Part shown: positions 51,001-53,388 of the stretch, in pieces
How positions within the stretch are numbered: the stretch's first letter is position 1
How the letters are laid out: every line of letters starts with the position of its first letter
Position numbers: made by a program
Assembly: GCF_001677475.2 (NCBI RefSeq)
Contig: NZ_CP015229.1
Origin: Escherichia coli
GTDB lineage: Bacteria; Pseudomonadota; Gammaproteobacteria; Enterobacterales; Enterobacteriaceae
Strand: one strand, 5' to 3'
DNA: 64,000 bases

Positions 51001-53388
51001 CCGGTCTTTTCGTACATCCGGTGTGAGTAGCCTAATACAAAACCGCGTTTATAATCGGCACAGTATTTTGTCACATTAACCGCACTGTCGGCATGCGTTG
51101 CTTTTAATCCCGCCATTAAGCCTTTACCAAAATGGTTATTCATCGTTCACCTCATTCGCTATATATTATCATATATAGCGATATTTTAGGCAAAGAACGA
51201 CTTTTGCGCACGCTATTTTTTCATGCTTGTTTAAGACGTAATCCCGTAAGAGATAAACCTATCAGGAGAGATATTTATCGAACCATTTCAGCGTCCTTTG
51301 CCAGGCAAGATCGGCGGCAGATTTGTCATAACGGGGCGTGGAATCATTATGGAATCCGTGATTAACCCCCGGATAGATATACGCCTCATAGACCTTATTA
51401 TTGGCTTTCAACGCCGCCTCGTAAGCAGGCCAGCCCTCGTTGATTCGGGTGTCCAGTTCCGCGTAGTGGAGTAGTAAAGGCGCTTCAATCTTCGCCACAT
51501 CGGCGGTGGGTGCCTGTCGACCATAAAACGGCACCGCGCAGGCCAGTTCCGGATACGCGACAGCCGCCGCGTTCGATACGCCACCGCCATAGCAAAATCC
51601 GGTAATACCCACTTTGCCTGTCGCTTGCGGATAGCGTTGCATAAACTCAATTGCGGCAAAGAAATCATTCATCAGTTTGGTTGGATCAACCTGCTGTTGC
51701 AGCTCACGACCTTTATCATCATTTCCCGGATAACCTCCAACGGAACTTAAGCCGTCAGGTGCCAGGGCGATATACCCCGCCTTCGCCACTCGCCGTGCCA
51801 CATCTTCGATATACGGATTCAGTCCACGATTCTCATGCACCACCACCACGGCTGGCGTTTTGCCGCTCATCTTTGCGGGCTTCACCAGATAACCCCGTAC
51901 CTCGCCGTGACCATTTGGTGAAGGATACGTGATGTACTCAGCAACAATCTCCGGGTCGGTAAACTCTACCTGAGTCGCCAGCGCATAATTTGGCTTGAGC
52001 AAATCAAACAACGCTAATGCCGTCATCCCGCCTATCGCATACTTCGCCGCAAGGTTGAGGAACTCACGTTTCGAGATTTTCCCGTGAGCGTAATAGTCAT
52101 AGTAATCCAGCAACTCTTGTGGGAAATCTTTGGCGGTTAAACGCGGCATCGTTGCACTCCTCAGTTGGTGTTTTTTTAAGCAAAGCATAAGCGCGTGTTT
52201 TTGCCCAATTTTTCGTCACTCTGTGAGCCAGACTACGGGATGCGCGCTGGCGAATCGCTAAACTAGAAACATTGTTTCGAAATTGAACGGTGGAAAGGAG
52301 AGGTCATGGTCTGGTTAGCGAATCCCGAACGTTACGGGCAGATGCAGTACCGCTATTGCGGAAAAAGTGGTTTACGCCTGCCCGCGTTATCGCTCGGTTT
52401 ATGGCACAATTTCGGTCACGTTAACGCGCTGGAATCACAGCGTGAGATCCTGCGTAAAGCGTTTGATTTGGGCATTACGCACTTTGATTTAGCCAATAAT
52501 TACGGGCCGCCTCCAGGAAGCGCAGAAGAGAACTTTGGTCGTCTGCTGCGCGAGGATTTTGCCGCTTATCGCGATGAACTGATTATCTCTACCAAAGCCG
52601 GATACGATATGTGGCCCGGCCCTTACGGCTCTGGCGGTTCACGTAAATATCTGCTCGCCAGCCTCGACCAAAGCCTGAACCGTATGGGGCTTGAGTATGT
52701 CGATATCTTTTACTCTCATCGCGTCGATGAAAATACGCCGATGGAAGAAACCGCCTCTGCGCTGGCTCATGCGGTACAAAGCGGTAAGGCGCTGTATGTC
52801 GGGATCTCCTCTTACTCGCCAGAGCGGACGCAAAAAATGGTCGAGTTGCTGCGCGAGTGGAAAATTCCGCTGTTAATTCATCAACCTTCTTACAATTTAC
52901 TGAACCGCTGGGTGGATAAAAGCGGCCTGCTGGATACCCTGCAACATAACGGCGTGGGCTGCATTGCCTTTACTCCTCTGGCTCAGGGATTGCTGACCGG
53001 AAAATATCTCAACGGTATTCCGCAAGATTCACGGATGCATCGTGAAGGGAATAAAGTTCGTGGTCTGACGCCGAAAATGCTCACCGAAGCCAACCTCAAC
53101 AGCCTGCGGTTATTGAATGAAATGGCACAGCAGCGTGGACAATCAATGGCGCAAATGGCGTTAAGCTGGTTGCTGAAAGATGATCGCGTGACGTCGGTAT
53201 TGATTGGTGCCAGCCGCGCGGAGCAACTTGAGGAGAACGTGCAGGCGCTGAATAATCTGACATTTAGCACCGAGGAGCTGGCGCAGATTGATCAGCATAT
53301 CGCCGATGGCGAGCTGAATCTGTGGCAGGCGTCTTCCGATAAATGACCTGTTAATAACGGGCGCGAGAACCGCGCCCGAATCAGATCA

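What the first reader, a model, noticed from the sequence alone, without database searches (positions are those of the whole stretch)
51262..52149. yghX dienelactone-hydrolase gene appears intact
An uninterrupted 295-codon frame with a strong GAGGAG Shine-Dalgarno encodes an alpha/beta-hydrolase-like protein. From memory this gene is annotated as a frameshifted pseudogene in K-12, so this strain may retain the functional allele.
Basis: partly seen in the sequence, partly recalled or inferred. Interest (0 to 1): 0.3.

Follow-up and report, generated by a model that had tools for sequence, protein, structure and literature searches.

The report
Intact yghX hydrolase gene, ordinary
This is the normal, working copy of the E. 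coli gene yghX, a cysteine hydrolase probably exported to the periplasm; the laboratory strain K-12 carries a broken copy, but about three quarters of sequenced E. coli have the intact one, so the finding is correct and ordinary.

Summary
On the minus strand, 52149 to 51262, there is an uninterrupted 295-codon frame plus stop. A GAGGAG Shine-Dalgarno lies 7 nt upstream.

- **Identity:** the protein is a full-length YghX-family hydrolase (NCBIfam NF041440, 588 bits; Pfam DLH). Its Cys186-Asp233-His264 triad and Glu106 align to dienelactone hydrolase ClcD. PDB 4ZV9 is its mature domain from O157:H7.
- **K-12 recollection:** correct. RefSeq marks K-12 yghX as frameshifted. It differs by a 2-bp deletion at codon 37 and a 1-bp deletion at gene position 470.
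- **Frequency:** the intact state is not special. Among 5,426 complete E. coli genomes, about 1,200-1,250 carry the K-12 deletions and 4,214 have the intact sequence at the second site. dN/dS among intact alleles is 0.03-0.12. The exact protein is already in NCBI.

Two additions:
1. The conserved N-terminal 58 residues look like a Tat signal peptide. The motif is KR here and RR in 26 of 30 distant homologues, followed by a PNYALA cleavage site. The enzyme is therefore probably periplasmic.
2. The K-12 "small protein" YqhI (47 aa) is exactly the N-terminal remnant of frameshifted yghX.

The native substrate is unknown. Already known; low interest.

The parts
51262..52149 (-). yghX coding sequence, 295 codons plus TGA, intact
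   Evidence: frame; Pfam DLH plus YqhI-like, NCBIfam YghX 587.7 bits; annotated yghX in 5,415 genomes
52157..52162 (-). Shine-Dalgarno GAGGAG, 7 nt before the ATG
   Evidence: Read directly from the sequence. The same start drives the SPA-tag-detected YqhI in K-12 (PMC6001520)
51976..52149 (-). Codons 1-58: conserved N-terminal extension, interpreted as a Tat-type signal peptide (n-region LLDYYDYYAHGKIS, KREFL motif, h-region, PNYALA cleavage site)
   Evidence: Alignments A2 and A3; residue counts; the PDB 4ZV9 construct begins at residue 59/60. Export itself is inferred, not shown
52066..52071 (-). Codons 27-28, Lys-Arg, at the position of the twin-arginine pair
   Evidence: Position 27 is R in 26/30, K in 3/30, H in 1/30; position 28 is R in 28/30; F30 in 27/30
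52040..52041 (-). TA dinucleotide (gene positions 109-110, codon 37) that is deleted in K-12-type alleles
   Evidence: alignment; the deletion junction is found in 1,248 of 5,426 genomes
51680..51680 (-). C (gene position 470, within a CC run) that is deleted in K-12-type alleles
   Evidence: alignment; deletion junction in 1,198 genomes, intact junction in 4,214
52033..52035 (-). Codon 39, ATA (Ile), where nearly all E. coli have GTA (Val); a rare conservative variant in the signal-peptide h-region
   Evidence: the 30-mer carrying this variant is found in only 1 of 5,426 complete genomes
51592..51594 (-). Codon for Cys186, the nucleophile in the G-F-C-Y-G-G elbow
   Evidence: Aligns to residue 123 of ClcD variant 4u2c; Cys in 28/30 homologues
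51451..51453 (-). Codon for Asp233, the triad acid
   Evidence: Aligns to ClcD Asp171; invariant in 30/30
51358..51360 (-). Codon for His264, the triad base
   Evidence: Aligns to ClcD His202; His in 29/30

Best explanation
This is the intact, ancestral allele of E. coli yghX. It encodes a 295-residue precursor of a YghX-family hydrolase with the alpha/beta-hydrolase fold of the dienelactone-hydrolase (DLH) family. Catalysis is predicted to use a Cys186-His264-Asp233 triad assisted by Glu106, as in Pseudomonas ClcD: the cysteine attacks an ester, lactone or thioester carbonyl to form an acyl-enzyme, which water then releases. The first 58 residues form a conserved Tat-type signal peptide (S-K-R-E-F-L, a moderately hydrophobic h-region, Lys52, A-L-A cleavage site). 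The folded protein is therefore probably exported by the Tat pathway and cleaved to a periplasmic enzyme of about 237 residues. K-12 and roughly 22-23% of sequenced E. coli lost the gene through a 2-bp deletion in the signal peptide, followed in most of them by a 1-bp deletion 360 nt downstream. What K-12 still makes from this start codon is the 47-residue YqhI fragment. Shown here: the intact frame, family membership, the aligned triad, the K-12 lesions, the allele frequencies and purifying selection. Inferred: Tat export, the cleavage site, periplasmic location and the chemistry. Unknown: the native substrate.
For: - **Frame and start:**
- **Family:** NF041440 at 587.7 bits; PF01738 at E=3e-48; PF23678 over residues 1-36.
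- **Solved structure:** 4ZV9 matches residues 59-294 at E=7e-161. It is from O157:H7 Sakai (PMC8533429).
- **Catalytic residues:** they align to ClcD numbering as C186=123, D233=171, H264=202, E106=36. They are conserved in 28/30, 30/30, 29/30 and 25/30 homologues.
- **K-12 status:** annotated as a frameshifted pseudogene, with the lesions located.
- **Population counts:**
- **Intermediate allele:** NT1F10 carries only the 2-bp deletion.
- **Selection:** dN/dS is 0.03-0.12 across five intact alleles, with dS up to 0.22.
- **Tat signal:** RRxF[LIM] occurs in 40 of 59 near-full-length representatives, and most of the rest look N-terminally truncated. Position 27-28 is RR in 26/30 aligned homologues. 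HybO and HybA in the same window show the same HG-I-x-RR-x-F pattern.
- **Expression from this start:** YqhI-SPA was detected in MG1655. Its sequence equals the K-12 frame-0 remnant.
- **Synteny:** gpr-yghX-yghW-hybO is conserved in E. coli and, with an extra gene inserted, in Kosakonia.
Against: - The twin-arginine position is K-R, not R-R, in this protein and its enterobacterial orthologues. K-R signals are known to work in some substrates, but this point rests on my own knowledge and is untested here.
- The n-region is unusually long, acidic and strongly conserved for a signal peptide, so it may do something else.
- No export experiment and no substrate are known. Purified EcoDLH (4ZV9) showed no phosphotriesterase activity, and no native activity has been reported in the papers I found.
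- The gene is dispensable in about a quarter of sequenced genomes.
Confidence: 0.85

Rival explanations
1. The frame is open, but the gene is effectively dead or silent in this strain: a neutral relic on its way to the K-12 state.
For: The gene has been lost repeatedly, by the K-12 deletions in about 1,200 genomes, by an IS1-associated truncation in IAL7255, and in shorter cluster members of 270-283 aa. No phenotype is known.
Against: dN/dS of 0.03-0.12 at dS up to 0.22 shows sustained purifying selection. Orthologues across Enterobacteriaceae are 85-92% identical and full length. The triad is intact. The promoter and ribosome-binding site are active even in K-12 (YqhI-SPA).
Confidence: 0.05
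2. The N-terminal 58 residues are not a cleaved Tat signal. They could instead be a Sec signal, an uncleaved membrane anchor holding the enzyme on the periplasmic face, or a cytoplasmic regulatory extension.
For: The motif is K-R instead of R-R here. The n-region is as conserved as the catalytic domain, which is unusual for a disposable signal. Pfam treats residues 1-36 as a separate domain, PF23678.
Against: Distant homologues carry a canonical RRxFL at the same column (26/30), followed by a hydrophobic stretch and an AxA-like site. The crystallised construct starting at residue 59/60 is a complete, well-ordered DLH domain.
Confidence: 0.2
3. It is a genuine dienelactone hydrolase (carboxymethylenebutenolidase) of a chloroaromatic or catechol degradation pathway.
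For: Pfam DLH membership and the aligned triad. KEGG-style annotations place yghX in chlorobenzene and fluorobenzoate pathways.
Against: - The alignment to ClcD is distant (E about 1e-14).
- There are no clc/tfd-type pathway genes nearby; the neighbours are gpr, yghW and the hyb operon.
- Neighbours differ completely in two distant homologues.
- A predicted periplasmic location does not fit a cytoplasmic ortho-cleavage pathway.
Confidence: 0.05
4. It is a short-chain poly-3-hydroxybutyrate (cPHB) polymerase. This was once proposed from its GxCxG motif.
For: A review cites Rychlewski et al. as naming ysgA, ycjY and yghX as candidate cPHB polymerases on the basis of GXCXG (PMC3709699).
Against: That idea was a prediction from a motif. 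K-12, the strain in which cPHB was studied, has yghX frameshifted. The fold and triad are those of DLH hydrolases.
Confidence: 0.03

Closest known systems
YghX family hydrolase of E. coli (NCBIfam NF041440; e.g. WP_001309763.1 of strain 118UI; PDB 4ZV9 from O157:H7 Sakai)
   Same: Same gene at the same locus (gpr / yghX / yghW / hybO). It differs from WP_001309763.1 by one residue, V39I. The exact protein is already deposited as ANO90914.1 and others, on 47 contigs.
   Different: Only the rare Ile39 variant in the signal-peptide h-region.
K-12 yghX pseudogene (b4658) and small protein YqhI (b4755)
   Same: Orthologous locus with about 98% nucleotide identity. YqhI shares its first 36 residues with YghX.
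   Different: K-12 lacks TA at positions 109-110 and C at position 470, so only the 47-aa YqhI is made from this start. The window allele reads through to 295 aa.
Dienelactone hydrolase ClcD of Pseudomonas knackmussii (PDB 1DIN, 4U2B-G)
   Same: Alpha/beta-hydrolase DLH fold family, a Cys-His-Asp triad at aligned positions and the Glu36 equivalent.
   Different: The sequence relationship is distant (E about 7e-15). ClcD is 236 aa with no N-terminal extension, and it sits in a chlorocatechol operon. YghX has a 58-residue signal-like extension and no pathway partners. Its substrate is unknown.
Klebsiella pneumoniae putative dienelactone hydrolase (PDB 3F67, KpDLH)
   Same: It is the nearest solved relative outside E. 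coli (E=8e-24) and has the same GFCxGG elbow.
   Different: It has different loop insertions. KpDLH has weak phosphotriesterase activity on FDDEP, whereas EcoDLH has none.
Tat signal peptides of HybO and HybA (in this same window)
   Same: The motif pattern H-G-I-x-[RK]-R-x-F-[LM], followed by an Ala/Gly-rich h-region and an AxA site.
   Different: YghX has K-R rather than R-R, a longer acidic n-region and no metal cofactor domain.

Membership tests
YghX family hydrolase (NCBIfam NF041440) | Whole-protein score above the curated cutoff of 460 bits, matching the profile end to end | tested here: met
   587.7 bits; residues 3-294 match profile positions 1-292 of 292
YghX family hydrolase (NCBIfam NF041440) | Orthologous chromosomal position between gpr and yghW/hyb | tested here: met
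   The window ORF map matches the K-12, 118UI, CFT073 and 88-3493 annotations
Dienelactone hydrolase family (Pfam PF01738) | Pfam DLH domain above the gathering score | tested here: met
   164.7 bits against 21; residues 84-294 cover profile positions 1-217 of 217
Dienelactone hydrolase family (Pfam PF01738) | Cys-His-Asp triad and the Glu36 equivalent at the ClcD positions | tested here: met
   C186/D233/H264/E106 align to ClcD 123/171/202/36; conserved in 25-30 of 30 homologues
Dienelactone hydrolase family (Pfam PF01738) | Alpha/beta-hydrolase fold shown by structure | tested here: met
   PDB 4ZV9 is the near-identical mature domain (E=7e-161). This was matched by sequence only, with no fold comparison run. 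The depositor describes it as an uncharacterized protein, and it is treated as a DLH-family structure in bioRxiv 10.1101/2025.10.30.685675
Dienelactone hydrolase family (Pfam PF01738) | Hydrolysis of dienelactone to maleylacetate | not testable with these tools
   No assay was found in the literature searched
Tat (twin-arginine) exported proteins | S/T-R-R-x-F-L-K motif before the h-region | tested here: inconclusive
   The window has S-K-R-E-F-L-N, with K at the first Arg position. The same column is RR in 26 of 30 distant homologues
Tat (twin-arginine) exported proteins | Moderately hydrophobic h-region and an AxA signal-peptidase site | tested here: met
   YAIGGMTALALFDLL, then KPNYALA followed by TQ. 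The 4ZV9 construct starts at residue 59/60
Tat (twin-arginine) exported proteins | Export that depends on TatABC | not testable with these tools
   Needs an experiment
K-12-type yghX pseudogene | The 2-bp deletion at positions 109-110 and/or the 1-bp deletion at position 470 | tested here: not met
   Both sites are intact in the window

The most novel reading that the evidence does not exclude
The strongly conserved, acidic N-terminal segment ahead of the twin-arginine position (consensus L-Y-D-x-Y-x-H-G-x-I-x-R-R-x-F-L, Pfam 'YqhI-like') may be more than a signal-peptide n-region. It could be a family-specific module, for example a docking site for a proofreading chaperone or an export and quality-control switch for a cofactor-less cysteine hydrolase. 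If so, the K-12 'small protein' YqhI would be this module expressed on its own. It might keep some activity, such as occupying the Tat receptor or the chaperone.
Probability: 0.12. Interest if true: 0.4.

Novelty: already known. Interest (0 to 1): 0.1.

Why it matters
It matters little for discovery. The gene, its family model, its crystal structure and the K-12 pseudogene status are all on record, and the intact allele is the common one. There are three practical points:

- yghX is widely used as a "neutral pseudogene" integration site in K-12/W3110 engineering. That neutrality does not automatically carry over to strains with the intact gene.
- The K-12 small protein YqhI should be read as the stump of yghX, not as an independent gene.
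- If the Tat prediction holds, YghX is a Tat substrate that inventories based on the K-12 allele could not include, because the gene is frameshifted there.

Tried and rejected
- **Gene neighbourhoods of distant homologues:** I looked for a conserved partner that might hint at a substrate. The neighbours were unrelated and no DNA was available. In Kosakonia a chemoreceptor gene sits between yghX and yghW, so yghX-yghW is not an obligatory pair.
- **Intact 30-mer count at site 1:** the count is split by nearby SNPs (829 plus 1), so it cannot give the intact fraction. I used site 2 instead.
- **Terminator between yghX and yghW:** the only hit is the AT-rich palindrome at 51156-51181. It lies on the wrong strand for yghX and overlaps the yghW promoter, so I rejected it as a yghX terminator. 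Promoter and terminator hit numbers do not exceed the shuffled controls.
- **Literature:** I found no biochemical characterisation of YghX beyond a negative phosphotriesterase test.
- **Structure prediction and fold search:** not run, because a solved structure of the same protein exists.
- **IAL7255 locus:** the feature table lists mdtM right after the yghX fragment, but the DNA there reads as the start of yghW. I did not resolve this discrepancy.

Full report
**Observation**

The finding's coordinates are right, but the gene is on the minus strand. It starts at ATG 52149 and ends with TGA at 51264-51262. That is 888 nt, or 295 sense codons, with no internal stop. GAGGAG sits at 52162-52157, seven bases before the ATG. 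A mechanical ORF reaches an upstream in-frame ATG at 52188 (308 aa). That codon has no ribosome-binding site, and all orthologues begin MPRL/MTRL. RefSeq annotates the 295-aa form.

**Identity**

- The protein matches NCBIfam NF041440 "YghX family hydrolase" end to end, at 587.7 bits against a cutoff of 460.
- Pfam finds the dienelactone-hydrolase domain PF01738 over residues 84-294 (E=3e-48). It also finds a 36-residue N-terminal "YqhI-like" domain, PF23678.
- The neighbours are gpr (divergent), yghW and hybO/hybA, as in every E. coli record inspected.
- The 1,088-bp region is present in 5,425 of 5,426 complete E. coli genomes and is annotated yghX.
- The exact protein sequence is already in NCBI as an E. 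coli YghX family hydrolase (ANO90914.1 and others) and has been seen on 47 contigs.
- PDB 4ZV9 is the same protein from residue 59/60 onward (E=7e-161). It is listed as an "uncharacterized protein" from O157:H7 Sakai at 2.0 Å (PMC8533429).

**The K-12 comparison**

RefSeq flags K-12 MG1655 yghX as "frameshifted", and NC_000913.3 lists it as pseudogene b4658. Alignment locates two lesions in K-12: loss of TA at gene positions 109-110 (codon 37) and loss of one C at position 470. The 120 codons between them are read out of frame, with several stops.

From the original start, K-12 can only make MPRLTAKDFPQELLDYYDYYAHGKISKREFLNLAAKCGRRDDGISVV. This is, letter for letter, the 47-residue "new small protein" YqhI reported from SPA-tagging in MG1655 (PMC6001520). 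It is annotated as b4755 and overlaps the pseudogene. YqhI is therefore the stump of yghX. Its detection also shows that the yghX promoter and ribosome-binding site are active.

**How common is each allele**

I used 30-mers that straddle each lesion, with megablast's 28-base word, so that only the matching state can hit.

| State tested | Genomes with a hit (of 5,426) |
|---|---|
| 2-bp deletion junction | 1,248 |
| 1-bp deletion junction | 1,198 |
| Intact sequence at the second site | 4,214 |

The intact state is therefore the majority, about 78%, and the K-12 state accounts for about 22-23%. That dataset contains many K-12 derivatives. Strain NT1F10 carries only the 2-bp deletion and is already annotated as frameshifted. 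This suggests that the 2-bp deletion came first and the 1-bp deletion followed in a gene that was already dead. Other independent losses exist, such as a copy in IAL7255 reduced to its last 32 codons beside IS1.

**Evidence that the intact allele is functional**

- Pairwise dN/dS among five intact E. coli alleles is 0.03-0.12, with dS up to 0.22.
- Orthologues in Citrobacter, Pseudescherichia, Enterobacter, Kosakonia, Leclercia and others are 85-92% identical and all about 295 aa.
- The HMMER alignment to a ClcD variant (4u2c) puts Cys186, Asp233, His264 and Glu106 on ClcD residues 123, 171, 202 and 36. I know these as the DLH catalytic residues from the literature (for the alignment).
- These positions are conserved in 28, 30, 29 and 25 of 30 diverse homologues.

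**Mechanism and location**

The chemistry I infer is that of a cysteine-nucleophile alpha/beta hydrolase acting on an ester, lactone or thioester.

The N-terminal 58 residues deserve comment. Within Enterobacteriaceae they are as conserved as the catalytic core. In distant relatives (36-68% identity), the column pair equivalent to Lys27-Arg28 is Arg-Arg in 26 of 30, followed by x-F-[LMI]. Among 59 near-full-length cluster representatives, 40 carry RRxF[LIM] in the first 70 residues, 3 carry KR, and most of the rest look N-terminally truncated. After the motif comes an Ala/Gly/Thr-rich hydrophobic stretch and P-N-Y-A-L-A, then the start of the crystallised domain.

This is the anatomy of a Tat signal peptide. 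It closely resembles the HybO and HybA signals encoded in the same window. I therefore propose Tat export and a periplasmic mature enzyme. This step is inferred. The K-R pair, although known from my own knowledge to be tolerated in some Tat substrates, leaves it open. The unusually long, conserved, acidic n-region is also unexplained.

**What it does not appear to be**

- **A ClcD-type pathway enzyme.** No chlorocatechol or similar pathway genes are nearby. Two distant homologues have unrelated neighbours, so context gives no substrate clue.
- **A promiscuous phosphotriesterase.** Purified EcoDLH (4ZV9) had no detectable phosphotriesterase activity, and its active-site cysteine was modified or oxidised in the crystal (bioRxiv 10.1101/2025.10.30.685675).
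- **A cPHB polymerase.** An old motif-based suggestion named yghX as a candidate (PMC3709699). It has no support here.

**Verdict**

It is a known gene in its common, intact state. Novelty is "already known" and interest is low.

The most useful by-products are three. First, the explicit K-12 lesions and their population frequencies. Second, the identification of YqhI as the yghX stump. Third, the prediction that YghX is a Tat-exported periplasmic hydrolase, which K-12-based work could not have seen because the gene is frameshifted there. K-12 engineers treat yghX as a neutral integration site, and that assumption may not hold in strains with the intact gene.

Noticed in passing
window 51156-51181: A perfect 11+11 palindrome, TCGCTATATAT-tatc-ATATATAGCGA, lies 13 nt upstream of the yghW start (51143, minus strand). 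It overlaps the -10 of a promoter-like site, TTGCCT-17-GATAAT, which matches the constitutive yghW promoter listed for K-12 (PMC3946193). The arms are conserved in all 8 E. coli loci fetched and absent from the two Kosakonia loci. It looks like an operator site; the binding factor is unknown.
   Followed up: partly
K-12 locus L003 749-892 (NC_000913.3 3147597-3147740); window equivalent 52009-52149: The K-12 small protein YqhI (b4755, 47 aa) is exactly the frame-0 N-terminal remnant of frameshifted yghX. Pfam's 'YqhI-like' domain PF23678 is the n-region and Tat motif of YghX-family precursors.
   Followed up: yes
locus L005 (NZ_CP075462.1, strain NT1F10) 401-1286: An intermediate allele with only the 2-bp deletion. 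Together with the 1,248 against 1,198 genome counts, it suggests the 2-bp deletion preceded the 1-bp deletion.
   Followed up: partly
window 52033-52035: The Val39Ile variant in the signal-peptide h-region is rare. Its 30-mer occurs in only 1 of 5,426 complete genomes (strain 88-3493), although the exact protein is on 47 contigs in the larger collection.
   Followed up: partly
window 44000-60000: No complete E. coli RefSeq genome is more than 98.4% identical over these 16 kb, and the best match for the yghX region is 99.4%. The source strain therefore belongs to a lineage poorly represented among complete genomes, or the region is a recombination mosaic.
   Followed up: no
window 157-16149: A type II secretion gene set (GspF at 4315-5535, GspE at 5538-7028, GspD at 7031-9088, plus further ORFs of gsp-like size) lies next to the 1,525-aa lipoprotein metalloprotease SslE at 11575-16149. 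From memory, K-12 keeps only a decayed version of this cluster. If so, this is a second locus where this strain is more complete than K-12. I did not check that against K-12.
   Followed up: partly
window 27626-31740: Three adjacent plus-strand genes: a fatty acyl-AMP ligase (872 bits), a partial match to NAD-dependent epimerase/reductase families, and a serine-palmitoyltransferase-type enzyme of the BioF/Kbl family (600 bits, above the equivalog cutoff of 500). A sphingolipid-like or acyl-amino-acid biosynthesis cassette is unexpected in E. coli and may be worth a separate look.
   Followed up: no
locus L008 (NZ_CM130730.1, strain IAL7255) 1748-2760: yghX is reduced to its last 32 codons directly beside an IS1 element. 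The record's feature table lists mdtM immediately downstream, but the DNA there reads as the start of yghW. I did not resolve this mismatch.
   Followed up: partly
result (query window 51162-52249): The search found 6,099 matching places in 5,425 records, so several hundred genomes have a second, shorter match to part of this 1.1-kb region, and one match is on a plasmid. I did not determine what the extra copies are.
   Followed up: no
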